A stretch of 64,000 nucleotides of DNA from positions 9,835 through 73,834 of the forward strand of contig DAOQSN010000003.1 of NCBI GenBank assembly GCA_035356615.1. The letters run 5' to 3'. The DNA is from Phycisphaerae bacterium. GTDB taxonomy: Bacteria > Planctomycetota > Phycisphaerae > UBA1845. Below, one piece after another: positions 2,716-48,086 of this stretch. Below the pieces are notes generated by a model that was not told the origin of the DNA, ran no database searches, and was given only the letters and a program-made list of their open reading frames with translations. The translations under genes and the position numbers were made by a program. Position 1 is the first letter of the stretch. The number at the start of each line of letters is the position of its first letter.

Positions 2716-5700
2716 CTAGCCACCGCCCCGCGTTGCCTCCTCGACGACGCGGATTTCGTCGTCTGTCAGACCGTAGAGCTCGTAGACAAGCCGGTCGATC
2801 TGTCGGTCGGTGGCGTCGATCTGGCGCTCGAGGGCGGTCCGCTTGTGCGGGGTCTTCGCCGCGGGAAGGGCCTGGTGCAGGTCGAGCATCGTCTGGACGA
2901 GGGTGACGAGGCGGTGGTAGCGTCCTCGCGGGCGCGGGGCCGCACGACCGGGAGGGCAAACCGGGAGACTGCGCGTTTCCTTCAAGACGATCTTCGGAAA
3001 ATCGTCACGTTGAGCGATAGTCGACTTATGCAGGAAATACCAGGACAGAAGTCGGCTGTTAAGGATACCAAGCAAGTACCTGAGATCGGGCGCACCGGGA
3101 AGGGCGAGCACCGATTGCATCGACTTGTTCGTCACGAAGTCTTGTGATACCATGACAGCTTGAATTCGGAATTTCCGGCTGATGAGCTCGCGGAGCAGAA
3201 GCCGAGGTCCGGTGAAGTACCGTTCCGGCTTCGGCTCCGCGAGGGTATCGTCAAACTGAATGAACGCCGGCGGCCCCGGTTCGTAGGTGTATCTGCGCAC
3301 GGTCCCGGTGAACGCCGGGCGCGCGTGTCGGCCCCGCGAACGCCCCGTGAGCGAAAACGGTGTGACGCCTCGCTGGATGTCAGCGAAAGTGCTGAACGGG
3401 CGAGCGACGCTCTCAATCTTGCCGAGGATGGATGTAGCCGCGTCATCTGCGCAGGTCAGATACTCGTCCCTGTTGTGCGCGAGCCACCGCGTGAAGTCTG
3501 CCGCAAGGTAGTCCTCGTCTATCTCCGAGCTCTCCGAAATCCGATGCCGCTTCGGGAACGTTCGGAGTCTGACCGGACACGGCACGGTCCGTGGCCACTG
3601 GAGACGGTCCGCACGCTTGGCCAGGACAAACATAGTCGTGTCAACCCAGGCGCGAAAGACATCGTACGGGAGGTTCACGAAAACTCGCGGATCCGTGGTA
3701 CAAGCGAGCAGCCGACGTAGAGGCGAGAAATCCGCGCCGCTGTACCAGCCGGTCGGGGTGATGAACGCGATCAGCCCCCCAGACTTCGCCAGACGAACCG
3801 CCTGCTCTATGAAGAGGGCGTAGCTGTCCACCCCTGAAGAAACGCCTTCAAAGCGACTTCGCAGATACAGAGACTCAGGCGCGCTGATTGCGGCTCCATA
3901 CGGCGGGTTTCCGATGACCGCGTCGAAGCCGCAATCGGGGTCGGGGGCCCGGGACTGGGGAGTGGGGACTGGGGACTGGGCGCCTGCAACCCGAGCCCCG
4001 GAACCTGAGCCCCTGCCGCCCGGGCCTGACCCCCGAAACACCTCTGGGAACTCAGTCTTCCAGTCGAAGACGTTGATGCGCAGGCGCTCGTCCTCGTCGA
4101 ACATGTTCAATTGCTGCCCGTTGTAGAAGTCCGGGCCGATCAGCGAGTTGCCGCACTTGATGTTGCGGTTCAGGTCGGGCAGGGCCCGTTCGTGGAAGAG
4201 CCGGAGCGTCGAGTCGATCGTCTCGCCGGTCTCGCCCTCCAGCACCTTCAGCAGCAACGACAGCTTGGTCGTCTCGACGGCCTGCGGATCGATGTCCACG
4301 CCGTAGATGTGGTTCAGCAGAATCCGCTTCTTTTCCTGGATGGTGAGGCGCCATTGACCGCCGGCGGCTTGGTAGATGGGAAGCGACGAACGGCGGGAGG
4401 CCTTGTCCGCAGATGACGCAGATTGACGCAGATTACATACCTGTGATGCCGGCTGCTGATCTGCGTTAATCGGCGAAATCTGCGGACCCGATCCGGGCAT
4501 CTGGGCGACGTACCAGTCGCGGTGCCAGTCCAGCAGGTACTGGTACGCGCCCAGCAGGAACGATCCCGAACCGCAGGCAGGGTCGAGAATCCGCAGCCTG
4601 GAAATCGGGCCTAGGGGCTCGGGGTCAGGGGCTGGGCGGGGTTTCTTCGCAGGGCGGCGATGAGCGCGTTCAGGAGTTTTCCCACGCGCTGACAGAGATC
4701 CCAGATCGGCACGACGGCTTCCCGTTTCACCAAGTCGAGCCGCACCGCCAACGTCAGATGAGTCTCCAACTCTGCCAGCGAGCCCCGCGCCATGGAGAGG
4801 TGATGAAGGTAGTCGCCCCGGTGCGTCCGGCTGTGCCCCTCCGCGACGTTCGCCGGAATCGAGACGGCCGCTCGTTGGATCTGACTGGCCAGTCCGAAGC
4901 GCTCCTGCGCCGGCAGCGCTTTCGCCACACGGTAGACCTGCTCCACGAGGTCCATCGCTCTCTGCCACACTTCCAGGTCGCGGTAGTGCTTGACGGCCAT
5001 CGGCCTCGTCTCCCAAACCCCCACTCCCTGACCCCCGACCCCGAGTCCCGAGTCCCGAACCCCGTTCTTCGAGCAGCTTGCCGACCGTGTTCCTCACGAT
5101 GTAGTCGACGATGTAGGTCGGCGTGTAGTACACGCCGCCGGCCTTGCGAACCTCGGGCTTCTCCTCGACCTTGGCGTGGTGGCCTTTCGTCAGGCGGATC
5201 ACCTTGCCCAGGAACTGCTCATAGACGTGCCCCAGAATCTCCGGCGGTAGGACGGAGAACTCGTAGGGGCTGTCGGGGTAGTACAGGCCGCGAAGCACGT
5301 CCTTGAGCACGCGGTCATCAAGTTGCAGGCCCAGTGTCAGCTCATCGATTGCCCCGCGCCCGAACTCAGGTGTGAAGTAGAACAGCCCGGAGTTGTAGCG
5401 TTCATCGGCGCGGCGGAAGATCGCGCCCAGGCGCTCGTAGACCTTGTCCCCGTTGAGCAACCCCTGGAGTTGCCCGTAGCGCTCGATGCCCCGGTCTTCG
5501 CACAGGCGCAGGAAGACGACCCGGTCGATGGTGCGCTGGACGGCAAAGTTGAGGTCGCGGACCGATAAGTCCGGATTACGCAACGCGAAGTTCTGCGCCA
5601 GCATCTCCCGCCAGAGCTCGATCTCCCGGAGAAACTCGGCGTCCACCTCGGCCGTGCCGCGCTTGCGTTTGTTGGATTCGGCGTATTGGTCGAAGGCACC

Positions 5701-6249
5701 CTTAAGGACGGCCTCCTTGGCGAACAAGCCGCTGATCCAATCCCAGTGGGCGGCGTATTGATCGCAGGTGCAGTAGAAGACGCGGGCCGTGGCGGGCTTG
5801 TCCGTTGGCGCAGGGCGGATGCGGCAGTCGTAAACCGCGAACTCCTCGAAGTCCGTCAGGACGGAGAGGGGCAGCTTGCTGGTCCAGGCGTAGCGACGGA
5901 GTTGATAAGCCGCCTCCGGATCGCTACTCAGGGCGACCGCCGGCTTCTTCGCCTCGACGAAGAACTTGCGCGTGCCGCCGATGCGGAAGCAGTAGTCGGG
6001 TGCCTTGGTGGCCCCGCCGATCTTGATGGCGTCCTCGTGGATGACGTCCTTGTAGGCTTCGGCCAGCCCGCCCTCGTTGTCCACGTCCCAGCCGAGGGCT
6101 TCGAAAAAGGGGTCGATGAACTCGCGGCGCACCTGGGTCTCATGGTAGCCTGGCGAGCCATACGCTTCGCGGTTGCGCGCGAAGCGCTCCGCCAGCTCCA
6201 CCACCGTGGCCGGGCAGGGCGATTGCGCTTCGCGCTCTGAGGTGCTCAC
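2716..6249 (-). CDS. Type IIG restriction-modification enzyme: N-terminal PD-(D/E)XK nuclease, gamma-class N6-adenine methyltransferase (Eco57I/BpuSI-like) and TaqI-like C-terminal specificity domain
   Basis: Nuclease motif APDYCF...KFFVEAKKP. GVYYTPTYIVDYIVRNTVGKLL block. Motif I ILDPACGSGSFLLGAY. Motif IV VIGNPPYG. TRD-type LGILNSRLLSWYF. The probable start is GTG at 6249; the longer ORF to 6486 would overlap the kinase gene. The ORF is continuous but contains three palindromic insertions, listed as separate features. Confidence 0.85.
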   Translation of the reverse strand: MSTSEREAQSPCPATVVELAERFARNREAYGSPGYHETQVRREFIDPFFEALGWDVDNEGGLAEAYKDVIHEDAIKIGGATKAPDYCFRIGGTRKFFVEAKKPAVALSSDPEAAYQLRRYAWTSKLPLSVLTDFEEFAVYDCRIRPAPTDKPATARVFYCTCDQYAAHWDWISGLFAKEAVLKGAFDQYAESNKRKRGTAEVDAEFLREIELWREMLAQNFALRNPDLSVRDLNFAVQRTIDRVVFLRLCEDRGIERYGQLQGLLNGDKVYERLGAIFRRADERYNSGLFYFTPEFGRGAIDELTLGLQLDDRVLKDVLRGLYYPDSPYEFSVLPPEILGHVYEQFLGKVIRLTKGHHAKVEEKPEVRKAGGVYYTPTYIVDYIVRNTVGKLLEERGSGLGTRGRGSGSGGLGDEADGRQALPRPGSVAESDGPRGAGLPCGESAAGAGALRTGQSDPTSGRLDSGERRGGAQPDAPGRLPSSPLHGAGLAGRVGDSSDVGGAARLGETGSRRADLGSLSARGKTPERAHRRPAKKPRPAPDPEPLGPISRLRILDPACGSGSFLLGAYQYLLDWHRDWYVAQMPGSGPQISPINADQQPASQVCNLRQSASSADKASRRSSLPIYQAAGGQWRLTIQEKKRILLNHIYGVDIDPQAVETTKLSLLLKVLEGETGETIDSTLRLFHERALPDLNRNIKCGNSLIGPDFYNGQQLNMFDEDERLRINVFDWKTEFPEVFRGSGPGGRGSGSGARVAGAQSPVPTPQSRAPDPDCGFDAVIGNPPYGAAISAPESLYLRSRFEGVSSGVDSYALFIEQAVRLAKSGGLIAFITPTGWYSGADFSPLRRLLACTTDPRVFVNLPYDVFRAWVDTTMFVLAKRADRLQWPRTVPCPVRLRTFPKRHRISESSEIDEDYLAADFTRWLAHNRDEYLTCADDAATSILGKIESVARPFSTFADIQRGVTPFSLTGRSRGRHARPAFTGTVRRYTYEPGPPAFIQFDDTLAEPKPERYFTGPRLLLRELISRKFRIQAVMVSQDFVTNKSMQSVLALPGAPDLRYLLGILNSRLLSWYFLHKSTIAQRDDFPKIVLKETRSLPVCPPGRAAPRPRGRYHRLVTLVQTMLDLHQALPAAKTPHKRTALERQIDATDRQIDRLVYELYGLTDDEIRVVEEATRGGG
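3937..4034 (-). repeat. Family A solo hairpin (no cargo) inserted in frame just upstream of the NPPY motif
   Basis: GGGGTCGGGGGCCCGGG (3937-3953) pairs with CCCGGGCCTGACCCCC (4019-4034). The GGGACTGGGG/GGGAGTGGGG strings are shared with the full copy. It translates as GSGPGGRGSGSGARVAGAQSPVPTPQSRAPDP in the host ORF. Confidence 0.55.
4407..4485 (-). repeat. Family C hairpin (CCGCAGAT...ACGCAGAT arms) inserted in frame in the Type IIG gene
   Basis: CCGCAGATGACGCAGATTGACGCAGAT (4407-4433) is an imperfect inverted repeat of ATCTGCGTTAATCGGCGAAATCTGCGG (4459-4485). It translates as ...ISPINADQQPASQVCNLRQSASSADK... between the conserved DWHRDWY and IYQAAGGQWRLT blocks. Confidence 0.6.
4611..5000 (-). 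CDS. Four-helix-bundle protein (23S rRNA intervening-sequence protein / Avd-like family), nested inside the Type IIG gene in a different frame
   Basis: MAVKHYRDLEVWQRAMDLVEQVYRVAKALPAQERFGLASQIQRAAVSIPANVAEGHSR...YLHHLSMARGSLAELETHLTLA is the textbook sequence pattern of this family. ATG at 5000 follows GGGAGACGAGG. Confidence 0.85.
   Translation of the reverse strand: MAVKHYRDLEVWQRAMDLVEQVYRVAKALPAQERFGLASQIQRAAVSIPANVAEGHSRTHRGDYLHHLSMARGSLAELETHLTLAVRLDLVKREAVVPIWDLCQRVGKLLNALIAALRRNPAQPLTPSP
4614..5064 (-). mobile_element. IVS-like palindromic element (family A, full copy) carrying the four-helix-bundle gene
   Basis: On the gene strand, a G-rich arm (5064->5017, ...GGGACTCGGGGTCGGGGGTCAGGGAGTGGGGG) and a partly complementary C-rich arm (4641->4614, CCCCGCCCAGCCCCTGACCCCGAGCCCC) bracket the cargo ORF. 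Confidence 0.6.
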
Positions 6250-11975: not shown

Positions 11976-12115
11976 CGGGTGGGCCCGGGCCGCCTGGGTT
12001 TCAGCGCTGACCTTGTAGCCGTCCGCTCTGCGCCTTATCCTGCCCGCCATGCGGCCGACTTGCCCCGCAGGCTCGTCGGGAGAGTCGAGTGGACAGGGGC
12101 GCAGGAGTGCTCGCC

Positions 12116-14058
12116 ATGGCCAAGCGGCGAAAGGCCCGTTCCCCCGAGCCCGAGGTCTCAGGCCCCGTGAAGGGCGACTTCATCGCCCCGCCGGAGGCAT
12201 CGGAGACGGACGAGCGCGAGGACGCTCTGCCGCGGCAAGAGGAGTTCTGGCGCCCGCCGGTGCGGTTCGGCAGCGTCCCGGTGGAGAAGGAGCCGCTGGG
12301 CTGGGACCGCCGGCGCGGCTTCCGCAAGCTCTTCCCGCATGTGCCGCTGCCGTTTCAGGTCATCGAGCGGGTGACCTTCGGCCATCCCGAGCTGGAGCCC
12401 AACCGCCTGTTCTGGGGCGACAACCTGCACGTCATGCGGCAGCTTCCGTCGGAGAGCATCGACCTGATCTACATCGACCCGCCGTTCTTTTCCGGCCGGC
12501 AGTACAACGTCATCTTCGGCGACCAGAACGAACTCCGCTCCTTCTCCGACATCCGGGAAGGGGGCATGCCTGGCTACCTCATCTGGCTCAACGCCCGGCT
12601 CTACGAGATGAAACGGCTGCTCAAGAAAACGGGGAGCATCTGTGTTCATCTTGATTGGCACGCGGTGCACTATGCGAGGGTCGAGTTGGACAAGATATTC
12701 GGCCATGGCTGCTTCAGGAACGAGGTCGTCTGGTACTACTACAACAAGATGCATGATCGTCGCAAACGCCTGTTACCGCGAGCACATGACGCGATCCTCG
12801 TGTTCGGTAAGACATCGGAAGCTAAGTACAACCAGGTCGAGATCCCGCTTGAGCAGCCAGTCAAGAGACTCGCTCGAAAGAAAATCGGCGGTCGCGCGGT
12901 CAACGCCCGTGATGAAGACGGCAACCTACTTTACATCACGAAGAGCTCGCGGGCCCTGGATGATGTATGGCGAATCTCAATGCTGCAGCCCGCGGACAAG
13001 ACCTATCGAATTGGTTATCCCACCGAGAAGCCACCGCGACTGCTGGAATGGTTAATCAAAACTTCAGCTACGAAGGGGACACGGTCGCCGATTTCTTTTG
13101 CGGCGGTGGTGTTACGCCATTCGCGGCTCAGGCGCTCGCTCGCCGCTGGATCGCCTGCGACCAGTCGCGGGTGGCGGTGGCGATCACGGCCGACCGCCTG
13201 GCACGCGGGGCAGAGCAGTTGATGCTCGACCACGTGACCGTGCCGATCCCGGACTTCACGATCGAGCACTGGGGGGTGTACGAGTCGCGGCGGCTGGCGG
13301 AGATGCCGCCGGAGCAGTTCCGGGCGTTCGTCCTCCGCTGCTTCGGGGCCGTGCCGGAGGAAATGGACAGGATTAACAAGATTCACAAGATCAGAAACCA
13401 AAATCCTGTAAGTCTTGTAAATCCTGTCCATATTCATGGCTACAAGGGCGCGATACCGGTCTGGGTGGGCGAGCCGGACCAGAAGAAGGGCGTCACCGCG
13501 CAGGATGTGCAGGCGTTCGCCAACGCTATGCGCAAGACGCTCCGCTACCAGCAGGACAACCTGCGCGAGGGGATCATGCTGGCGTGGGCGTTTCGGCCCG
13601 ACGCGCTGGAGGCGGCCGAGCGCCTGCGGCGGCTCGAACAGACGGACCTCAACTTCATCCGCCTGGATATGATCCGCATCGACTCGCCGCGCTTCCGCGA
13701 GCACGTGACGTCGCTGACAACGCAGCACGCAGACTACGAGAACTTCCTGACGTTCGTGCAGGCGCCGAAGGTCGAGGTGGGGTTCAAGCGCGTGGCCGCG
13801 CGGAGCTACGTGTTCGACGTGAGCGAGACGGTCGTGATGAACCCCGGGGCGAAGATCATCAACGTGCAATGGGACTTCGACTACGGCAAACGCTTCTCCA
13901 GTACGCCCGGTTACTCGTTCATCCGCGGGAAGAACAAGGAGGCGCAATTGCAGGCGCAGTACGAGTTCCCCAATGCCGGGAGGCAGCGTATTGCATGCAA
14001 GGTCCAGGATGACCTCGGCGGCGAGGGCCTGTGGACGGCGGAGATTGACGTGGAGTAG
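12116..14058 (+). pseudogene. Beta-class N4/N6 DNA methyltransferase (Type III Mod-like) with a C-terminal PKD-like domain; disrupted by a frameshift near 13060-13070
   Basis: Motif IV IDLIYIDPPFFSG and YPTEKPPRLLEWLIKTS lie in frame 2. Motif I GDTVADFFCGGGVTPFAAQALARRWIACDQS lies in frame 1. The two ORFs (12089-13222 and 12967-14058) overlap. The C-terminus INVQWDFDYG...YEFPNAGRQRIACKVQDDLGGEG resembles a PKD fold. Confidence 0.75.
13365..13429 (+). repeat. Family B solo hairpin inserted in frame inside the Mod gene
   Basis: GGACAGGATTAACAAGATTCACAAGAT ... ATCCTGTAAGTCTTGTAAATCCTGTCC. It translates as MDRINKIHKIRNQNPVSLVNPVHI in the host ORF and is markedly AT-richer than the flanks. Confidence 0.7.
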
Positions 14059-14821
14059 ACAGGATTTACAAGATTAACAGGATTAAGAGAGAGAGAAACA
14101 GAATCTTGTCAATCTTGTGAATCCTGTCCAACCAGGCCGAGCAATGATACGGGATTTACAAGATTAACAGGATTAGGAGAGAGAACAACAGAATCTTGTC
14201 AATCCTGTAAATCCTGTCAAAAAAGAGGGCTCGATGACCATTGACCAGTTGACGGAGAAGGTGATTGGTTGCGCGTACCGAGTTCATAATGAATTGGGGG
14301 CCGGGTTCCTGGAGAAGGTGTATGAGAACGCGCTGCGGATCGAGTTGGCTGAGGCGGGATTGCGCGTGCAGCAACAGCACCCAATTCCGGTGGTATATCA
14401 CGGCGAGGTGGTGGGCGAGTATTTTGCCGATCTGATGGTGGAGGACTGCCTCATTGTCGAACTGAAAGCGGTGCAGAGCGTGGGCAAGGAGCACGAAGTG
14501 CAGTTGGTGAATTACCTGGCGGCGACGGGCATTGATGATGGCGTGCTCATTAACTTCGGCTCCTCGGTCCAGGTGAAACGCAAGTTCAGGCGGTACAAGG
14601 AGCGGGCACCATCCTCGGCGGTCGCGCCGGGCCGCGCACCGGCGGGGACCGGCGCCCAGCCCATCGCCGGGAGCGTGGTTGAGGGGCAGTGAGCAAAGAA
14701 TGGACAGGATTTACAAGATTAACAGGATGAGAAGGAAGTAGAACGGGACCTTCGGGGTCTTGGACGTGACGGGACAGACAGGCTGGACGAATCTGATCTT
14801 GTCGATCCTGTAAATCCTGTC
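14058..14821 (+). mobile_element. Family B hairpin cluster (three copies) flanking a GxxExxY gene, occupying the mod-res intergenic space
   Basis: Hairpins at 14058-14129, 14151-14218 and 14702-14821. All are built from GACAGGATTTACAAGATTAACAGGAT / ATCTTGTCAATCCTGTAAATCCTGTC arms. Confidence 0.7.
14234..14692 (+). CDS. GxxExxY protein (PD-(D/E)XK nuclease-fold family)
   Basis: VIGCAYRVHNELGAGFLEKVYENALRIELAEAGL...PVVYHGEVVGEYFADLMVEDCLIVELKAV...QLVNYLAATG... matches the GxxExxY signature and the D...ELK core. Confidence 0.85.
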   Translation: MTIDQLTEKVIGCAYRVHNELGAGFLEKVYENALRIELAEAGLRVQQQHPIPVVYHGEVVGEYFADLMVEDCLIVELKAVQSVGKEHEVQLVNYLAATGIDDGVLINFGSSVQVKRKFRRYKERAPSSAVAPGRAPAGTGAQPIAGSVVEGQ

Positions 14822-26951: not shown

Positions 26952-26999
26952 TTCACCGGCGTCTCGCCTGGGTATCCGCCGCGGCTTCGTCCGCGTGGA

Positions 27000-27051
27000 C
27001 ACCGGCGAGACGCCGGTGCCATAATGCGGGTACCTCGGCGAGACGCCGGTG
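27000..27051. repeat. Repeated CACCGGCGAGACGCCGGTG hairpins (two full copies, plus a partial inverted copy at 26954-26968)
   Basis: Read directly: an 8-bp stem with a 3-nt loop, repeated within 100 bp. Confidence 0.7.
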
Positions 27052-40684: not shown

Positions 40685-41260
40685 CGTTACATCCTCCGCG
40701 CCCGGTGCCGACGGCAGGTTCCGCGACCGATGCGTCCCGCCCCGGACACCCGGGTGAAACGAACCCGATCTCCGACTCCACTTTCATCATACCCTCTGCC
40801 GCCGGGTTTCACCACTGCACCAAGACGGGTCTCGGGGCGTTCTGCGAGCGGTGTGCCACGCCGCCGCGAAAGGGGGGGCTGGGGCGTCCGCTCTGAGATT
40901 TGAGATATCAAATCTCGCCACGCCCCCGCGATAGGGGTTCCGGGGGGAGCGGACGGCGGCGGCAGCGACCGCCCGGCGGGAGCGGCGGCGGGCATGAATC
41001 GGCCCCTCTCCCGCATCGGGGGCTTCCGCGCCCGGCGTGGGCTACGCCCCCATCGACCGCGGGCGAGCTCGGACGCCAAGTTCACGGCGTTGGGTGCCCT
41101 GCTTTCCCGCGACCGCGGTCGCGGGTAACCATGCCTCTGCGGACGCAGCACATGCCCACCCCCGCCTGCGGCGGGTGAGGGCATGGCACCCACGCTAAAA
41201 CGTACTCTCCCCCGGCGAGAGAGGCAGGGGTCTGGAGCTGCAGCGCGGGGCTGATGCCGA

Positions 41261-41295
41261 CCCCTCTCCCCCGGGGAGAGGGGCAGGGGTGAGGG
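41261..41295. repeat. Dispersed repeat CCCCTCTCCCCCGGGGAGAGGGGCAGGGGTGAGGG (a degenerate copy lies at about 41201-41232)
   Basis: Read directly. Confidence 0.8.
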
Positions 41296-41873
41296 CCGCG
41301 GAGGCGGGTGCATGCTTACGACTCGGAGGCAAGGTTGCCCGCGACTCCTCCGGAGGGGACGCCGCGGCCACGACACGCGCGGCGATGGATCGTCAGTCGC
41401 GGCGACGTGGGGGCTGCCGCTCCTCGGAGGTGCCGGCGGCTGCTGCTACGCTCGCCTGCCGGACTCCGCCTGATCCGCGGTGTACCGGCAGGTGGGCGTT
41501 CAACGAACCCCATCTTGCGGGTCGTGCGGGCAGCGCCCTGATCGCCCGGGAGCCGAAGGTCGCCGGATCGCCGGCGTGCGGGAGGTTGCCGGTAGCCCGT
41601 CGTGCAGGAGATGCCCACGGATTGCCCGCGTGCGGGAGGTTGGCGAATCGCCCGCGTGCCGGGCGGGGTCGGTCCTCCCCGGCCGGGGCCGGTCTAGACC
41701 GCCGGGGCTTGCCCGGGGTCGTGGGTGGATTAGAATGCTGCCGGTGGTGAGGACGTGGCCGGCCGGGGCGGCGACCCCGGCGGGCGTCGGGTGCTACGGC
41801 CACGCCCGCGAGGGTGGGTCGGTCCTGCACCCCAGCCGCAGAGGCCGACGCTGCCCAGCGGCGAAGCCCGAAA

Positions 41874-43252
<1,379 letters not shown>

Positions 43253-43256
<4 letters not shown>

Positions 43257-43474
43257 ACGTCACCTCCCCTTTGCTTTCGTCGGGGCAAGCGTACCAGCGT
43301 CAGCCGGTAGCCGAGTGTTGCGGCCAGCCTCTCGGCCGACGCGAGAGACAACCCCCGCTCGCCGGACAGCAGCCGCGACAAGGCGGATTGCTCGATACCA
43401 CCGTCAACCGACAGCCGGTATCGAGTCCGCCCGTCCGCTTGGATCAGCTTCCGAAGATCGTCCAGTAGGTTCAT
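43253..43474 (-). CDS. Small helix-turn-helix (XRE/Cro-like) DNA-binding protein
   Basis: MNLLDDLRKLIQADGRTRYRLSVDGGIEQSALSRLLSGERGLSLASAERLAATLGY. Its stop overlaps the integrase ATG (ATGA). Confidence 0.6.
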
Positions 43475-43505
43475 GCCGGTACCATACCCCATTGCTTGCC
43501 GCGCG

Positions 43506-45902
43506 TCAACTACAATCCGCCGGGTCATCGTAAATCGGTTCCGCGTCCGGGTCGGCTTCCGGGACGCGCCAGACCACCTCGTCCGGGGGGCCGTCTCCGA
43601 CGCTTTCGACACTGGCGACACTGGCGACGGTGCCAGAACCCCTGTTTTCGGGGTCGTGGCGCGGGGTTTCGTCGCCGTCGCCAATGTCGCCAAGCCGAAA
43701 CGTCGCCGTCGCCCGCCCACCGGCTGGACCAGGCTGCGTGTAGTCCCACCGCCCGAAGCCCGCCTTGACCAGGGCGTCCAACGCTTCCCGTGCCAGCTCG
43801 GGCTGGTCGCGGAATCGCCGGGGGCCGCGGGCCAAGTCGCGGGCTGTGCAGCGATTGCCGTGTTGGCGAATCCACGCCACCAGCTTCCGCCGATCCGCCG
43901 TCGCCGGGTCAACGCCTCCCTCGTCGCTCGCCAGCAGGGGGTACAACCTTGCGGCTTCGCTCCCGAACCACGACGCCAGCTTGCACGCTCTCTCCATGAC
44001 GCCGGGCGTCACCACCACCGCACCACCCGCCGCCGATGCTTCGCAGGTTGCCAACGTCAAGGCCAGCCGGAGCGCGATGCCCCGCAGCTTGTCCAGCGCG
44101 GCGCGCAGGTCATCATCATCGGTGGCGTCGATATCCTTGCCCAGGAGGTCGCGCCACGCTATGAACACCCGCCGCGCGTCCGACCCGACGCCGACCGTAG
44201 CCGGTATGGGCGAACCGGAGTCATCGGTCGCGGGCCGCCAGTCCAGCAGGGCCGCCAACAAGTCGCGCCACGCGAACACGGCCGCCGGGTCAAGCACGCC
44301 CGCCGACCACCGCGACGGCCGTTGGGGTGGCCACACCAACAAGAATCGCGCCAGAAAGCCGCTTTCGCGTTCCGCCCTGGCGAACGTGCGCTTCAGCGTG
44401 CGTGGTTGGATTCCGCCCAGCAAGCTCACCGCCGCGTGCTCCACGAATATGGAGACGCCGCCCGTCTTGCGGTCCACCAAAACGTGCTCCGCGCTGTACA
44501 TGCTAAGGTACGCTTCGCGGTCATTACCTCTGCCACCTGCCGCATACCGATCGAATCCACCGATCAGCCCCGACAGCTCGTCGCGCACGCACAGCAGCCC
44601 CAGCGGATTGTCGTTCAACATCGTGGCGAGGCGTTCTACTGTTATATCTGCCACCAACACACGCTTCTCGATCGGCCGCTCGGGTTCCAACGGTGGATCG
44701 GTTGCGGGGCCGTCGCGTTGCGATTTCTTCCACGTGGCGAGGTCCACCTCATAACGCGCCAACGCCGACACGTGCTCACGCATCGCGCGTTCGTGTTCGA
44801 CCCGCTCGGCCTTGAATAGTTCGATCAACGGCCGCGTAATCAGTCTCAGCAACGGGGTTTTCGTCGTGCCCGAGCGCCCGACGATCGTGCCCCAAAGCAC
44901 AGCGGCTTCCGACCAGCCGGGAAATACTTCGATGCGCGCTCGATTGCCGATGCACGCCGTTGCCGTGACCAGCGCCCCCAGGGCCGCCCATGCCGGATCG
45001 GTGTCGGTCGCCGCCGCCGCCGACAGCGCGAAGTCACGCATGGTGTCGGGCAGCAACTCGACGGGGAACGGTTGCCATTCGGCCGCCGGGTCCGGTGCAT
45101 CGTCCGCGGGGTCGTAGCGCGCTACGCTCGCCGCGATGCGCTCAACTTCGGCTTCGTCCAGCGGCACGTCACAGCGCTTGCGATTCACAATGTGTAGGGC
45201 CGTGGCGATTTCTTCTCGCTCAACACCCGCGCGCCGCATCACGCCCGCCATACTCATTAACGTTGCGTTGCGCTTGCCCTCTGGGATGCCCTGCCCGTTC
45301 AGCGGGTCCGGTCCGGCTGCCCCGCGGGGCTTCCGGGCCGGTTCCCGCAGAAGGTCCAGCAGCCAACCCGGAGCGTCGGCAAGCGGCGTGCTTTCAGGAT
45401 CGTGAATCCATCTATACAGATTGCCACTTGCATGATTGCTCGGCGGCGCCAACACGTATCCACCCGCGCCCCGCGTGTCGATGCCGGGGCCGAGTTTCCC
45501 CGCAGTGTTTCGGTACATGCCGTCCAGCGGATACCGAAAGTAATAGTGGCACCCACCGCCACCCGTAGCAGCGGTTACAGTTTTCGGCAACGGGCCATAC
45601 TGCACTTCGAGCTGCGCAAGGCTTGCGGGTCCGCCGTGGCGCGGGTCGATGTCGAGAACCAGCAAACCGCTTTCGGGTCCGGTGCATACTGCAACATTCG
45701 CAGACGGCCAGCGCTGCCACCAGGTGCGGATGCGTTCCGCGTCGGTCGTGCCCTCGGCCAGCCCGTGTGCCGGGCGCGGATGTTTGCCCGCAGACTTACA
45801 AGCAGGCTCGCCGCAAGAGCACCCCCCGTTTTTGATTGAATTACACGGGAACGTTCGCCAGCCGCACGCGGCGTAAGACAAGGCAGCGTCTAGCGTGGTC
45901 AT
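43506..45902 (-). CDS. Bifunctional primase-polymerase (PrimPol N-terminal, PriCT-like) fused to a DUF3987-type replication-helicase-like domain
   Basis: ALSYAACGWRTFPC...GKHP...NVAVCTGPESGLLVLDIDPRHGG. GGYVLAPPS. GKRNATLMSMAGVMRR. C-terminal ...VRDELSGLIGGFDRY...REAYLSMYS... Confidence 0.8.
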   Translation of the reverse strand: MTTLDAALSYAACGWRTFPCNSIKNGGCSCGEPACKSAGKHPRPAHGLAEGTTDAERIRTWWQRWPSANVAVCTGPESGLLVLDIDPRHGGPASLAQLEVQYGPLPKTVTAATGGGGCHYYFRYPLDGMYRNTAGKLGPGIDTRGAGGYVLAPPSNHASGNLYRWIHDPESTPLADAPGWLLDLLREPARKPRGAAGPDPLNGQGIPEGKRNATLMSMAGVMRRAGVEREEIATALHIVNRKRCDVPLDEAEVERIAASVARYDPADDAPDPAAEWQPFPVELLPDTMRDFALSAAAATDTDPAWAALGALVTATACIGNRARIEVFPGWSEAAVLWGTIVGRSGTTKTPLLRLITRPLIELFKAERVEHERAMREHVSALARYEVDLATWKKSQRDGPATDPPLEPERPIEKRVLVADITVERLATMLNDNPLGLLCVRDELSGLIGGFDRYAAGGRGNDREAYLSMYSAEHVLVDRKTGGVSIFVEHAAVSLLGGIQPRTLKRTFARAERESGFLARFLLVWPPQRPSRWSAGVLDPAAVFAWRDLLAALLDWRPATDDSGSPIPATVGVGSDARRVFIAWRDLLGKDIDATDDDDLRAALDKLRGIALRLALTLATCEASAAGGAVVVTPGVMERACKLASWFGSEAARLYPLLASDEGGVDPATADRRKLVAWIRQHGNRCTARDLARGPRRFRDQPELAREALDALVKAGFGRWDYTQPGPAGGRATATFRLGDIGDGDETPRHDPENRGSGTVASVASVESVGDGPPDEVVWRVPEADPDAEPIYDDPADCS

Positions 45903-46117
45903 CGCGCACCGCCTTTCGTGCGCGCGTCGAGCCAGGCTTGCAGCGCGTGAACGTTGTAAAGGGTTCGGGCCCCGAGCCGCAGGTGCGGGATTTCGCCGGA
46001 GTTCGTGCGCGACCACAGCAACCGCACGCCGATGCCCAGCATTCGCGCCGCCTCACGCGCGCCAACCGCCAGGGGGGCCGGGGCGTCGGGGGTCACAGAG
46101 TGTTTCTTACTGGGCAT
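45899..46117 (-). CDS. Excisionase-family (AlpA/MerR-type HTH_17) DNA-binding protein
   Basis: LAVGAREAARMLGIGVRLLWSRTNSGEIPHLRLGARTLYNVHALQAWL. Confidence 0.7.
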   Translation of the reverse strand: MPSKKHSVTPDAPAPLAVGAREAARMLGIGVRLLWSRTNSGEIPHLRLGARTLYNVHALQAWLDARTKGGAR

Positions 46118-46316
46118 CGGTGTCCCCTTTGCGTGCTGCCCGTGCCAGTAGTTCGCGCTCTACGGCAGCACAATTGAAGAGGAGGCGGCGCCCAGCGCGC
46201 AGGTAGGGCACGCGCTCGGCTTCGGCTTCGGTGCGCAGCCAGGCAGCGGGCACCCCGAGCCGGAACGCCGCGCGCTCCAGTGAGATGAAACTTTCGTTGG
46301 TGTTGCGTGGGTCCAT
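46107..46316 (-). CDS. Second excisionase-family HTH protein
   Basis: ISLERAAFRLGVPAAWLRTEAEAERVPYLRAGRRLLFNCAAVEREL. It overlaps the next gene by 11 nt. Confidence 0.65.
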   Translation of the reverse strand: MDPRNTNESFISLERAAFRLGVPAAWLRTEAEAERVPYLRAGRRLLFNCAAVERELLARAARKGDTDAQ

Positions 46317-46390
46317 GCCCCGAGTGTGAACGCGCGCGGACCGCACGCAAGCGTTTTTCGCCGTGAGGGGGTTTCTTTCGGATATTCGGA

Positions 46391-47065
46391 TTAGTTTCCG
46401 GGTTTCTTTCGGATTTGGCCGAGCTGGGCCAGGGCGGCTTGGCAACGTTCGCGCGTGGCGTTTTCAGTGTTCACGGCCAGCATCGTCTGCACAAGCTTCA
46501 TCGCGTCGCCGGGCGAATAGCAGAAGTTTCGTTGACCGGGCCGGGCCGTCGTCAGGCCAGCTCGTTTCGCATACTTATTCAACGTGTCATTCGTGACGCC
46601 CGTTAGCCCGCGCAGCTCGGGTATGGTGACGCCGGGGCCGTCCGCCACGTCCGCCACCGGGGGCACGTCGGCAGCGGGCGTCGGTTCAGCATGCACGGGG
46701 ACGGGGTCAACCCATCGCAGTACACCGTCTATGGCCAACGCCAGGTCGCGCGGCACGTCGCCGAAACGCTGCCACGCTATGGGGTCCTGCTTGGCCAGCA
46801 GCGCCACCCACCGGCTATCCGTCGCGCACCGCACCGCCTCTTGCAGCACCGACCGCAACGCGGGCGCCTCGCGCTCGGCCATGTAGGCCGCCAGCGCAGG
46901 CACCAGTGCCCCAAGCTGGTTCGCCATCTCCCGGAACGCTTGCACGTCGTCGGGATACGCTTCTGCGGGGCTACGCCCGCGAAGCTCCGCGTAGTTGCGC
47001 TCGGGCAATTCGAGTAAGGCGTCGCGGATCGTCAGCAGCCGGGAGCGAAGATCGTCGGGGGGCAT
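46391..47065 (-). CDS. Hypothetical island protein with C-terminal HTH-like segment
   Basis: ATG at 47065 (MPPDDLRSRLL...). VTIPELRGLTGVTNDTLNKYAKRAGL resembles an HTH. Confidence 0.55.
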   Translation of the reverse strand: MPPDDLRSRLLTIRDALLELPERNYAELRGRSPAEAYPDDVQAFREMANQLGALVPALAAYMAEREAPALRSVLQEAVRCATDSRWVALLAKQDPIAWQRFGDVPRDLALAIDGVLRWVDPVPVHAEPTPAADVPPVADVADGPGVTIPELRGLTGVTNDTLNKYAKRAGLTTARPGQRNFCYSPGDAMKLVQTMLAVNTENATRERCQAALAQLGQIRKKPGN

Positions 47066-47348
47066 GCCACCTATCCTTCGCGGGCCGACCCGGCCGAGCC
47101 CAGGCGATAGGTGTTCCTGGACCCGGCTGGGCCGTTCGCAAGCCGTCGCCTGCTGCCCACCACAGTTTCCGCGTGCGGTCGCCCGCGTCAACACACTTGC
47201 CAAACATTGCCACCGGCGCCCTTAACCTCTTATCTACTTTTCGGTCGCCTTGTTGTTTCAGGGGCCGCCGGTTCCGCCCCTACCGCCAAGCCCGCCGAGC
47301 TGCCGATCGTCGCTTGGCGCGGCCTTTCCGCCTGCGGCCGGGGCATCG

Positions 47349-47573
47349 TCACTCGCCGGCGGGGGCTTGGGCTGCCATTGCGCACGCCCAGTCGCGGGGG
47401 ACACTCCGCAACACGCCGCCCAAGCAGTGTGCATAGGCGCCCGTCCGACGATTGCGGATCAGCATGCCCACCATGGCGTCACGGACCGGATGCTGCACCC
47501 ACCGTCGGATAACTTCGAACCCGTCTGGCACCAACCCGGCCAAGGCCGGGGGTTCCTGCTGAGTCTGAGTCAT
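47349..47573 (-). CDS. Hypothetical small island protein
   Basis: ATG at 47573 lies after GGAGGTGA. 74 codons; no recognisable motif. Confidence 0.45.
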   Translation of the reverse strand: MTQTQQEPPALAGLVPDGFEVIRRWVQHPVRDAMVGMLIRNRRTGAYAHCLGGVLRSVPRDWACAMAAQAPAGE

Positions 47574-48086
47574 CGTGTCACCTCCATTGTTCACTTCCCC
47601 CCCCCATGCCGGGCGAGACACACAATCGCCTCCCGGACGGCCGGGGGCAAGCTCGGCCACGCTTTCACCACCGCCGCAAGCTGGGGGTCCGCCGCTTCCG
47701 TTCGGGGTCCGTCCGGTTCCCGAGGGGGGTCCGCCGGGGCCGGTTTTCTGCGCCCAACTGCTGACAGTTCTGCTGACGCGCGGGCTGGGGGTTTCGTAAG
47801 TCCTTGTCCCGTAACGTCTTGTGGCGCCGGGCATCGGTCTACGGAACCGAAGGTTGGAGGTTCGAATCCTCCGCGGCGCGATTTCAACGGTTTGTGATTG
47901 ACGCGGGTGGATCTCTACGAGGGGTGATTCTGCGCGCAGAGCCGGCGGCCCAGGGGCAGGCTCGCTTGACTCGGGACGCCGGCGGGGAGGCAGTGTGCTG
48001 CCTGGGGTCGGGGGGCGGCCCGCGGGGTACATTCGGACCTGGCGTCACTGCCCGGTGACGGCGGTGGCGGCGGGAGCAGGGACGCT

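What the first reader, a model, noticed from the sequence alone, without database searches (positions are those of the whole stretch)
3937..4485. Two further cargo-less palindromic elements inserted in frame in the same R-M gene
A 98-bp family A solo hairpin (3937-4034) sits right before the NPPY motif. A 79-bp hairpin of a different family (4407-4485, CCGCAGAT...ACGCAGAT arms) sits between the DWHRDWY and IYQAAGGQWRL blocks. Neither breaks the frame. Together with the nested gene, that makes three palindromic insertions in one 3.5-kb ORF. In-frame colonisation of coding genes by palindromic elements is known from Rickettsia (RPE). Seeing it concentrated in restriction-modification genes suggests either targeting or tolerance specific to these genes.
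Basis: partly seen in the sequence, partly recalled or inferred. Interest (0 to 1): 0.65.

Follow-up and report, generated by a model that had tools for sequence, protein, structure and literature searches.

The report
Hairpin repeats inside a restriction gene
Two short palindromic DNA repeats sit in frame inside a bacterial restriction-modification gene, in loops where related genes from many phyla carry other such repeats, so selfish hairpin DNA appears to persist in a protein gene by being read as harmless floppy loops.

Summary
Both hairpins are real. They are insertions relative to most homologs, and neither breaks the 1177-aa type IIG restriction-modification ORF (2716-6249, minus strand).

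- **Hairpin A (3935-4036).** It shares both termini with the neighbouring element that carries a 23S-rRNA-IVS-protein gene, so it is that element's cargo-less form.
- **Hairpin B (4405-4487).** It belongs to a hairpin family built from three CGCAGAT heptamers per arm. I found this family in more than 12 bacterial phyla and in phage contigs. It is almost always extragenic, sits next to genes of every class, and occasionally carries a GxxExxY nuclease gene.
- **Three recurrent sites.** In homologous genes the same three loops carry many unrelated palindromic families, IVS-protein cargo elements and one RAYT-like transposase gene. Of 39 inserts in loci chosen without regard to ORF integrity, 38 keep the frame.
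- **Structure.** AlphaFold predicts all three inserts as disordered coil between confidently folded domains.
- **Second gene family.** A type III-like methylase in the window shows the same pattern at one site.

This is Rickettsia-RPE-like in-frame colonisation. Tolerance plus selection explains it best. Targeting of restriction genes is not supported for family B. How the elements move is unknown.

The parts
2716..6249 (-). Host gene: a type IIG restriction-modification enzyme of 1177 aa. It has an N-terminal PD-(D/E)XK nuclease, a gamma-class N6-adenine methyltransferase and a TaqI_C target-recognition domain.
   Evidence: Pfam HSDR_N, Eco57I, N6_Mtase and TaqI_C. PADLOC REase_MTase_IIG, E 5.8e-160. 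All columns invariant across 107 homologs are retained. Foldseek matches BrxX/PglX, CamA, BpuSI and TaqI.
3935..4036 (.). Hairpin A, the solo (cargo-less) form. Its arms are built from GGGGACT-type heptamers. It adds a net 96 nt (32 codons) directly before the NPPY motif ('site 3').
   Evidence: Fold. Termini shared with the cargo element (D6, D7, I1). Spacing of 129 nt against 33 nt in homologs. pLDDT below 50 at residues 745-760. Heptamer hairpins of 63-105 nt (anchor-to-anchor spacing 87-129 nt) occupy the same site in L001-L006.
4405..4487 (.). Hairpin B. Its arms are three (T)GACGCAGAT units. It sits between DWHRDWY and IYQ..GGQW ('site 2').
   Evidence: Inverted repeat of 29 nt at 86%, z -6.8. 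The same element occupies the same site in L001/P0004. The family pattern occurs in 49 viral stretches and at least 120 genome stretches. Arm covariation. pLDDT below 50 at residues 592-610.
4600..5063 (-). Cargo element at 'site 1', directly before methyltransferase motif I. Heptamer arms at 4600-4636 and 5020-5056 enclose an IVS-protein gene (CDS 4611-5000, minus strand). That gene lies in frame +1 relative to the host, and the host frame stays open through it.
   Evidence: PF05635 E 2.5e-36 and TIGR02436. Arms. Host frame has 0 stops over 158 codons. Equivalent elements in L002-L004, L083, L086 and L097. pLDDT below 50 at residues 402-537.
13363..13431 (.). Hairpin C (ACAGGAT/ACAAGAT units at 9-nt spacing), in frame in the type III-like DNA methylase gene.
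   Evidence: Inverted repeat of 29 nt at 86%. Only one plus-strand frame is open, and it is the host's. 110 of 120 homologs lack any insert at this site, while P0128 and P0139 carry the same peptide.
14058..14821 (+). Three further family C hairpins (14058-14128, 14149-14218, 14703-14821) flank a GxxExxY / PDDEXK_3 gene (14234-14692, plus strand) between the methylase and the res helicase gene.
   Evidence: Inverted repeats. PF13366 E 1.5e-42 and TIGR04256.

Best explanation
The two segments are copies of two families of short, non-autonomous palindromic repeats, comparable to REPs, MITEs and RPEs.

- A is the empty form of a heptamer-armed hairpin element. A second copy about 570 bp away in the same gene carries an IVS-protein (Avd-like four-helix-bundle) gene.
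- B belongs to a very widespread 'CGCAGAT x3' hairpin family. That family normally lies between genes and occasionally carries a GxxExxY PD-(D/E)XK nuclease gene.

Both landed in inter-domain or surface loops of a type IIG enzyme. In such a gene only copies persist whose length is a multiple of three and that have no stop in the host frame. They are then translated as disordered Gly/Ser/Arg-rich and Pro/Ser-rich loops, leaving the nuclease, methyltransferase and recognition domains intact. The clustering in this gene reflects three unusually permissive loops plus selection for an intact ORF. It does not reflect homing of these families to restriction genes.

Shown:
- Insertion relative to homologs.
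- Family membership and multi-copy dispersal.
- Frame retention.
- Predicted disorder of the inserts.
- Conserved catalytic motifs.

Inferred:
- That the full-length protein is made and active.
- How the hairpins move. Candidates are single-strand transposition by HUH/RAYT-type enzymes or nuclease-triggered copying.
For: 1. Insertions. Most homologs are 950-985 aa and lack all three segments. Uninserted spacings are 51 nt, 114-126 nt and 33 nt.

2. Dispersed families. The B pattern occurs in 49 viral stretches, often several per contig, and in at least 120 genome stretches from more than 12 phyla with GC 0.36-0.72. The heptamers are invariant, while the spacers vary yet stay complementary between arms: 72 cells changed on both sides against 46.6 +/- 5.1 in shuffles, 0 of 500. 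A shares both termini with the cargo element. Heptamer-armed IVS-protein elements recur with different units in L083, L097, L275 and L276.

3. Selection for frame. 38 of 39 inserts keep the frame with no stop in loci that were picked only by N-terminal similarity. Over all loci the counts are 24/25, 22/22 and 16/16 at the three sites.

4. Permissive loops. pLDDT is below 50 and the model is coil only at residues 1-5, 402-537, 592-610 and 745-760, while flanking blocks exceed 90.

5. Many families at the same sites. GTAG-type REP-like hairpins, CCCCCTT/AAGGGGG hairpins, GGGAGAGGG..GGGTGAGGG elements, a perfect 28-bp stem and a Y1_Tnp gene all occupy them.

6. No restriction-gene specificity for B. 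Its neighbours fall into 149 Pfam families, all ordinary. 122 of 145 copies have no spanning ORF, and none of 10 tested candidates has domains on both sides of the hairpin.

7. Same pattern in a second methylase family. 10 of 120 homologs carry an insert at one site, including a RayT fusion.

8. No bias toward G.U pairs on the mRNA strand (33 G.T against 45 A.C), which fits a DNA-level palindrome.
Against: - No transposase, target-site duplication or conserved target motif was identified for A or B, so mobility is inferred from distribution only.
- Close relatives carry different elements at exactly the same positions. Recurrent colonisation of loops of roughly 50 nt in many lineages seems too frequent for purely random insertion and hints at some local targeting or hairpin-into-hairpin replacement.
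- Strong inverted repeats are as dense inside these ORFs (0.09/kb) as in flanks that include intergenic DNA (0.10/kb). I have no genome-wide comparison with other gene classes.
- Heptamer units differ between hosts, which could also arise from in-situ slippage.
- Hairpin A's fold is not significant against shuffles.
- NCBI annotates only a 462-aa C-terminal piece of this gene. There is no expression or activity evidence.
Confidence: 0.6

Rival explanations
1. Homing. The elements specifically target conserved motif-coding DNA of restriction-modification methyltransferases, as inteins, group I introns and rRNA intervening sequences target conserved genes. A cargo protein (GxxExxY nuclease, RAYT or IVS protein) would drive insertion, and the solos would be decayed or non-autonomous copies.
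For: - The same three sites are occupied in many lineages and lie next to the most conserved blocks, motif I and NPPY.
- The content of a site turns over between close relatives.
- Cargo elements sit at site 1 in at least three divergent groups, always on the same strand and in frame +1.
- RAYT-like genes lie in frame in two unrelated methylase families.
- In the window, 6 of 8 strong inverted repeats lie in the two restriction-modification loci or the PrimPol gene.
Against: - Family B is overwhelmingly extragenic and lies beside genes of all classes.
- Unrelated families share the sites, so no single recognition system can explain them.
- Junction positions within the linker differ between loci.
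- No common DNA motif is visible at the three sites.
- IVS-protein identity between loci is no higher than host identity: 64% and 53% against about 70%. That fits vertical descent.
Confidence: 0.2
2. Host-beneficial modules. The hairpins would be kept because they help the restriction gene in one of three ways: as recombination hot spots for swapping the target-recognition cassette, as slippage-prone heptamer or decamer arrays giving ON/OFF phase variation, or as mRNA structures tuning expression.
For: - The gene is a mosaic. Identity to P0014, P0024, P0046 and P0066 is 77-89% up to site 3, 19-24% across the recognition module, and 72-76% again at the C-terminus. Hairpin A therefore sits at the 5' edge of the swapped cassette.
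- Unit lengths of 7 and 10 nt are not multiples of three, and the arrays reach 11 units per arm in L004.
Against: - Most homologs have no insert at each of the three sites, so the inserts are not required.
- 38 of 39 inserts are in the ON frame, unlike typical phase-variable loci.
- Independent assemblies of this gene are identical.
- The sub-repeats are imperfect.
- There is no G.U bias on the sense strand.
- The conserved NPPY block could itself provide the recombination junction.
Confidence: 0.12
3. Not insertions at all. The segments would be native low-complexity linkers that expanded in place by slippage or template switching and only happen to be palindromic.
For: - Some homologs carry plain tandem repeats with no hairpin at site 1 (L082 and L088, 15-nt units).
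- Heptamer units differ among hosts.
- Heptamer arrays often occur as single arms.
Against: - B has the same invariant heptamers, spacing and outer ends as hundreds of extragenic copies in unrelated phyla.
- A has the same two termini as the cargo element.
- Units of 7 and 10 nt make no sense as protein repeats.
Confidence: 0.05
4. The gene is a decaying pseudogene or a mis-assembly, and the open frame is accidental.
For: - NCBI calls only a 462-aa fragment.
- A stop-free run of 158 codons in the +2 frame has about a 7% chance in this genome.
- The neighbouring type III methylase carries a frameshift.
Against: - All residues invariant in the family are intact.
- Three of three inserts keep the frame here, and 38 of 39 do elsewhere.
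- The sequence is identical in four data sources.
- The AlphaFold model is confident outside the inserts (pTM 0.82).
Confidence: 0.03

Closest known systems
Rickettsia palindromic elements (RPE; Ogata et al. 2000, 2002, as summarised in PMC10969869)
   Same: Short palindromic repeats of several families inserted in frame into protein-coding genes. They are translated as extra peptide segments judged compatible with the fold.
   Different: - RPEs are confined to Rickettsia, are about 150 bp, encode a conserved peptide, and are scattered over unrelated metabolic genes.
- Here the hosts are free-living bacteria of many phyla and the arms are arrays of 7-10-nt units.
- Several unrelated families pile into the same three loops of one enzyme family.
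- Some copies carry genes.
REP / REPIN sequences and their RAYT (Y1, HUH) transposases; GTAG- and CGTC-tagged palindromes (PMC3733652)
   Same: Small, mostly extragenic, multi-copy palindromes. GTAG-initiated hairpins occupy the same sites in L001, L005 and L006. RAYT-like genes flanked by hairpins sit in frame in L097 and P0150.
   Different: - A and B lack the GTAG/CGTC tag.
- B keeps the same sequence across more than 12 phyla, whereas REPs are lineage-specific.
- No RAYT was found near A or B in the window.
23S rRNA intervening sequences carrying an S23p / IVS-protein ORF (Coxiella, Leptospira; PMC4990558)
   Same: An element of about 430-470 nt bounded by a long terminal stem (28 bp in Coxiella, 37 nt here) encloses a PF05635 gene. 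Shorter cargo-less hairpin versions exist. It is inserted at a permissive spot of a conserved gene, its distribution is sporadic, and its mobility mechanism is unknown.
   Different: The host here is an mRNA, not an rRNA. The host reading frame runs through the element. RNase III excision is untested, and it would destroy the message rather than leave a working fragmented product.
Bacterial MITEs inserted in genes (Correia, ERIC, BOX, Anabaena MITEs; PMC10969869)
   Same: Non-autonomous inverted-repeat elements that sometimes create in-frame fusions.
   Different: No terminal-inverted-repeat plus target-site-duplication signature and no parent insertion sequence were identified. The whole element is one hairpin.
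Phase-variable simple-sequence repeats in restriction-modification genes (phasevarions; from general knowledge)
   Same: Short tandem units whose length is not a multiple of three lie inside type IIG or type III genes.
   Different: The units here are imperfect, arranged as inverted arrays, and almost always found in the ON frame.

Membership tests
Rickettsia palindromic elements (RPE) | Palindromic repeat inserted in frame in a protein-coding gene without disrupting it | tested here: met
Rickettsia palindromic elements (RPE) | Sequence membership in one of the RPE families, with the conserved encoded peptide and a Rickettsia host | tested here: not met
   The host is a Phycisphaerae MAG. The arms are heptamer or decamer arrays with no conserved peptide across families. 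No direct comparison with RPE sequences was run.
REP / REPIN (RAYT-mobilised) | Short imperfect palindrome with a conserved GTAG or CGTC tag at one end | tested here: not met
   A starts CGGGG... and B starts (A/G)TCCGCAGAT. GTAG-tagged hairpins do occur at the same sites in L001, L005 and L006.
REP / REPIN (RAYT-mobilised) | Multi-copy and mainly extragenic | tested here: met
   Met for B. Copy number of A in its own genome could not be measured.
REP / REPIN (RAYT-mobilised) | A cognate RAYT gene in the genome, flanked by the repeats | tested here: inconclusive
   No long ORF scanned in the window matched Y1_Tnp. Y1_Tnp genes flanked by other hairpins lie in frame at the same sites in L097 and P0150.
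MITE | Terminal inverted repeats plus a target-site duplication, derived from an autonomous insertion sequence | tested here: inconclusive
   Inverted arms are present. No duplication is evident at the junctions I inspected, and no parent element was found.
23S rRNA intervening sequence (IVS) type element | Long terminal stem enclosing, or lacking, a PF05635 ORF | tested here: met
   Arms 4600-4636 and 5020-5056 with PF05635 at E 2.5e-36. A is the ORF-less form. The same architecture is found in L083, L097, L275 and L276.
23S rRNA intervening sequence (IVS) type element | Located in helix 25 or helix 45 of 23S rRNA | tested here: not met
   The host is a protein-coding gene. There is no rRNA in the window.
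23S rRNA intervening sequence (IVS) type element | Excised from the transcript by RNase III | not testable with these tools
   This needs RNA end mapping.
Phase-variable simple-sequence repeat locus | Perfect tandem units with length polymorphism that switches the frame between strains | tested here: not met
   The units are imperfect. 38 of 39 inserts are in frame. Independent assemblies are identical.

The most novel reading that the evidence does not exclude
Hairpins A, B and C may belong to one pan-bacterial superfamily of hairpin elements. Its arms would be short arrays of 7-10-nt units: 7-nt periodicity with IVS-protein cargo, and 9-10-nt periodicity around an invariant heptamer with GxxExxY-nuclease cargo. 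Each element would exist as a solo or with its small gene in or beside the loop.

On this reading the classical 23S rRNA intervening sequences are only the rRNA-resident members of a general class. That class would colonise permissive sites of conserved genes, including inter-domain loops of restriction-modification enzymes, where the elements survive by being read through in frame. For the IVS-protein cargo copies this happens with the cargo gene overprinted in the +1 frame.
Probability: 0.35. Interest if true: 0.75.

Novelty: new variant of a known kind. Interest (0 to 1): 0.6.

Why it matters
- **Scope.** In-frame colonisation by palindromic selfish DNA has been treated as a Rickettsia peculiarity. 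If this reading holds, it is widespread in environmental bacteria and concentrates at a few permissive loops of defence enzymes.
- **Map of insertion-tolerant sites.** This gives a natural map of such sites in type IIG enzymes, which is useful for engineering them.
- **Annotation.** It accounts for annotation failures, such as NCBI calling only a fragment of this gene.
- **Link to rRNA intervening sequences.** It ties the long-unexplained 23S rRNA intervening sequences and their S23p/IVS proteins, and the uncharacterised GxxExxY nucleases, to a recognisable hairpin architecture that can be tested for binding, cleavage and mobility.
- **A conserved motif to explain.** The near-invariant CGCAGAT-triplet hairpin across more than 12 phyla is itself an unexplained conserved DNA motif.

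Tried and rejected
- **Rfam.** No family matches either hairpin. The only hit is a chance miRNA match at E 0.95.
- **Literature.** Searches for PF05635, TIGR02436, GxxExxY and S23p together with restriction-modification or inverted repeats found no description of this architecture.
- **Cargo proteins near viral B or A copies.** tblastn with the window's IVS protein and GxxExxY protein found none at E below 1e-3.
- **First IVS-protein scan of viral contigs.** A single-sequence query found nothing. An alignment query found two loci.
- **MFE scan.** A sliding-window minimum-free-energy scan of all loci timed out. I replaced it with an ungapped inverted-repeat scan, which misses bulged hairpins such as A.
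- **RNA-level selection.** Counting G.T against A.C mismatches gave no sense-strand bias.
- **Intein-like splicing.** Rejected because the insert junctions have no conserved Cys/Ser/Thr or His-Asn.
- **Integron attC and CRISPR arrays.** Considered and rejected on architecture and on the absence of IntI or cas genes. No specific test was run.
- **Hairpin D in the PrimPol gene.** It lies in a poorly conserved C-terminal tail, so I could not show that it is an insertion.
- **Plasmid tblastn for the methylase region.** No match.
Full report
**What is there.** The window has 66% G+C and comes from a Phycisphaerae MAG. A minus-strand ORF runs from a GTG at 6249 to a stop at 2716 and encodes 1177 aa. 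Pfam finds HSDR_N, Eco57I/N6_Mtase and TaqI_C domains. PADLOC calls it a type IIG restriction enzyme-methyltransferase (E 5.8e-160), matched in four separate stretches. Typical homologs are 950-985 aa, and the excess length here lies in three segments.

- Site 1 lies directly before methyltransferase motif I (LDPACGSG). It holds a 23S-rRNA-IVS-protein gene (PF05635, E 2.5e-36; TIGR02436), with its CDS at 4611-5000 on the minus strand, between G-rich inverted arms at 4600-4636 and 5020-5056.
- Site 2 lies between DWHRDWY and IYQ..GGQW. It holds hairpin B, with arms 4405-4433 and 4459-4487, each made of three (T)GACGCAGAT units. Its z-score is -6.8 on either strand.
- Site 3 lies directly before GFDAVIGNPPY. 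It holds hairpin A at 3935-4036, built from GGGGACT-type heptamers. Its fold z-score is only -1.3 to -2.4, because shuffled G-rich sequence also folds well.

A's two ends match the two ends of the cargo element: 3935-3948 against 4619-4632 at 93%, and 4025-4036 against 5027-5038 at 100%. The identical protein is present in NCBI, JGI, ENA and Logan assemblies.

**They are insertions at recurrent sites.** A protein alignment shows that distant homologs (P0003, P0005, P0008, P0073, P0117) have nothing at the three sites. Closer ones carry other low-complexity segments exactly there.

I fetched DNA for seven close homologs. I also fetched 80 metagenome loci selected only by similarity to the N-terminal 393 aa, so their selection was blind to downstream integrity. 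I then measured the distances between conserved anchor peptides, searching for the anchors in any frame.

| Site | Uninserted spacing | Loci with an insert | Inserts in frame and stop-free |
|---|---|---|---|
| 1 | 51 nt | 25 of 71 | 24 of 25 |
| 2 | 114-126 nt | 22 of 63 | 22 of 22 |
| 3 | 33 nt | 16 of 58 | 16 of 16 |

Within the metagenome-scan loci alone, 38 of 39 inserts are intact. The exception is L086, whose 3' arm is 13 nt shorter.

The inserted DNA is nearly always palindromic, but it belongs to many families and matches the host's G+C content (0.43-0.72):

- heptamer hairpins like A, up to 11 units per arm and -152 kcal/mol in L004;
- B itself, at the same site in L001;
- GTAG-initiated REP-like hairpins in L001, L005 and L006;
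- CCCCCTT/AAGGGGG hairpins;
- CGGAATG arrays;
- GGGAGAGGG..GGGTGAGGG elements;
- a perfect 28-bp stem in L153;
- further IVS-protein cargo elements in L002-L004, L083, L086 and L097;
- a Y1_Tnp (RAYT-like) gene in the host's own frame in L097.

Close relatives differ in what occupies the same position, so site content turns over faster than the host gene diverges.

**What the families are.** The strict pattern CGCAGAT-NN-CGCAGAT-NNN-CGCAGAT hits 49 viral-contig stretches, often with several copies per contig. The genomes span Verrucomicrobiota, Planctomycetota, Chloroflexota, Acidobacteriota, Bacteroidota, Nitrospirota, several proteobacterial classes, Cyanobacteria, Armatimonadota, Lentisphaerota and others, with GC 0.36-0.72.

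About half of the hits are single arms. In full elements the loops are mostly 10-130 nt. A few loops of 360-415 nt occur. In L236 the loop encodes a GxxExxY-motif protein; the L225 ORF was not identified.

In 37 full elements the heptamers are invariant, while the spacers and outer bases vary yet remain complementary between arms. Cells changed on both sides number 72 against 46.6 +/- 5.1 in shuffles, and the covariation score is 0.135 against 0.084, with 0 of 500 shuffles reaching either value.

Genes next to B copies fall into 149 Pfam families of ordinary metabolism, with no defence enrichment. Only 23 of 145 copies have any spanning open frame, and none of 10 tested shows protein domains on both sides. 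B is therefore a REP-like extragenic element, and its presence inside this gene is exceptional.

For A, heptamer arrays occur in viral contigs as single or inverted arrays. Every IVS-protein cargo element examined has inverted arms of 7-nt units, though the unit differs: GGGGACT, GGGGTCT, GGGGATT, GGGCTTT, GAGGCTT.

In the window, a third family C (ACAGGAT/ACAAGAT units at 9-nt spacing) flanks a GxxExxY gene between the type III-like mod and res genes. One C copy also sits in frame inside the mod gene.

**Consequences for the protein.** AlphaFold, run with a 107-sequence alignment, gives mean pLDDT 81.6 and pTM 0.82. The only segments below 50 are residues 1-5, 402-537, 592-610 and 745-760. 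These are the three inserts; all are coil, and they lie between blocks scoring above 90. Foldseek matches BrxX/PglX, CamA, M.BseCI, BpuSI and TaqI. The CamA sequence alignment shows that the three sites fall in short linkers between conserved elements. All family-invariant residues are retained.

Family A units contain no stop in any frame, so only their length matters for keeping the ORF open. For the cargo element, the host frame is the IVS-protein frame shifted by +2. In this genome a stop-free run of 158 codons has about a 7% chance in that frame. Yet the host frame is open in six of the seven cargo copies at site 1, where IVS-protein identity to the window copy is 89-53% in five of them.

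**Is it specific to restriction genes?**

- In the window, an ungapped inverted-repeat scan finds 8 strong repeats, against about 1 expected per 64 kb from shuffles. Six lie in the two restriction-modification loci or the PrimPol gene of an integrated element.
- Across 56 loci, the interior of these ORFs has as many strong inverted repeats (0.09/kb) as their flanks (0.10/kb), and in the flanks the repeats are mostly intergenic.
- In the unrelated N6_N4 methylase family, 110 of 120 homologs have no insert at the FGAV..IHGYKG site. Ten have one: family C in three cases including the window, other REP-like peptides in the rest, and in P0150 a RayT gene in frame.

So certain loops of these dispensable, horizontally mobile enzymes repeatedly retain palindromic repeats. 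The repeat families themselves are not specific to restriction genes. Hairpin D, in the PrimPol tail, could not be shown to be an insertion.

**Mechanism and rivals.** The best-supported reading is insertion of REP/MITE/RPE-like selfish palindromes, filtered by selection to in-frame copies in permissive loops (confidence 0.6).

- **Homing.** A homing component remains possible (0.2), because the same short loops are hit so often and site content turns over. Against it, unrelated families share the sites, junctions vary, and B is generic.
- **Host benefit.** Host-beneficial roles (0.12) are suggested by the mosaic structure. Identity is 77-89% up to site 3, 19-24% across the recognition module and 72-76% at the C-terminus. 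Unit lengths that are not multiples of three also point that way. However, most homologs lack inserts, 38 of 39 are in the ON frame, and there is no G.U bias on the sense strand (33 against 45).
- **In-situ expansion and pseudogene or artefact.** Both are unlikely.

**Comparison with the known.** In how it behaves, this resembles the Rickettsia RPEs, which are in-frame palindromes compatible with the fold (PMC10969869). It also resembles REP/RAYT systems. The cargo form has the architecture of the 23S rRNA intervening sequence: a terminal stem plus an S23p ORF, excised by RNase III, with unknown mobility (PMC4990558). It is not a member of any of these by their defining features. The host and the families differ from RPEs, there is no GTAG tag, and the host is not an rRNA. 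I found no published description of heptamer-array arms around IVS-protein or GxxExxY genes, or of these hot spots. I therefore rate it a new variant of a known kind, with interest 0.6.

Noticed in passing
window 13050-13100 (G-run near 13075); ORFs 12089-13222 and 12967-14058: The type III-like DNA methylase is split over two frames. The switch falls at a run of four G's (acgaaGGGGacacgg), and a fifth G would restore ...TKGDTVADFFCGGG.... This could be a pseudogene, a sequencing error or a poly-G phase switch.
   Followed up: partly
window 14058-14821: A GxxExxY / PDDEXK_3 gene (PF13366, E 1.5e-42) lies between the mod and res genes. It is flanked by three complete family C hairpins whose architecture parallels family B (three heptamer-core units per arm).
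   Followed up: partly
window 43613-43692: Hairpin D has arms built from TGGCGACAC-type 9-mers and is read in frame in the C-terminal tail of a PrimPol/DUF3987 protein. The tail is weakly conserved in homologs, so insertion is unproven. It could instead be an iteron or origin-like site of the integrated element.
   Followed up: partly
window 41874-47880: An integrated mobile element: a tRNA gene at 41874-41947, a tyrosine integrase at 41880-43256 (minus strand), a PrimPol-DUF3987 gene at 43506-46016 (minus strand), and a weak second tRNA match (31.8 bits, near the threshold) at 47824-47880 that may be an attachment-site duplicate.
   Followed up: no
window 26954-27051: A strong intergenic hairpin (-88 kcal/mol) carries CACCGGCGTCTCGCC and two inverted copies of it, between a C25 peptidase gene and the next ORF.
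   Followed up: no
window 41244-41300; also L080, L129 and L137 inserts: A CCCCTCTCCCC/GGGGAGAGGGG palindrome followed by GGGGTGAGGG. The same motif type is found in frame at sites 2 and 3 of homologous restriction genes.
   Followed up: partly
window about 2690-2716; L083 4865-4945 and 8519-8603: Just 3' of the restriction gene's stop lies CCGCTCCCCGACGGTCGCGGC, a half copy of the 'PLPHGRGSD/SRDREGA' palindrome family. That family flanks the whole gene on both sides in L083 and also sits inside it at site 3.
   Followed up: no
L097 7227-7886; protein P0150: RAYT-like Y1_Tnp genes with their REP hairpins are inserted in the host's own reading frame in two unrelated methyltransferase families, which gives predicted fusion proteins.
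   Followed up: partly
window 2716-3930 compared with homologs: The target-recognition module, from NPPY to about residue 1100, is swapped relative to the closest relatives (19-24% identity against 77-89% upstream). This is typical cassette shuffling of type IIG specificity.
   Followed up: partly
L004 about 4806-5061: A hairpin of about 150 nt with 11 heptamers per arm (-152 kcal/mol) is read in frame at site 2. It is the most extreme case seen.
   Followed up: no
window 2716-6249: NCBI's annotation of the same sequence names only a 462-aa 'TaqI-like C-terminal specificity domain-containing protein' (HNQ22672.1). The inserts apparently defeat automated gene calling.
   Followed up: no
L057, L066 (viral contigs): Heptamer arrays of different units lie side by side, for example (GAGTCCC)3 next to (GTCGTTG)3. 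Short-unit arrays therefore seem to be a general, unexplained feature near gene starts in these phage contigs.
   Followed up: no
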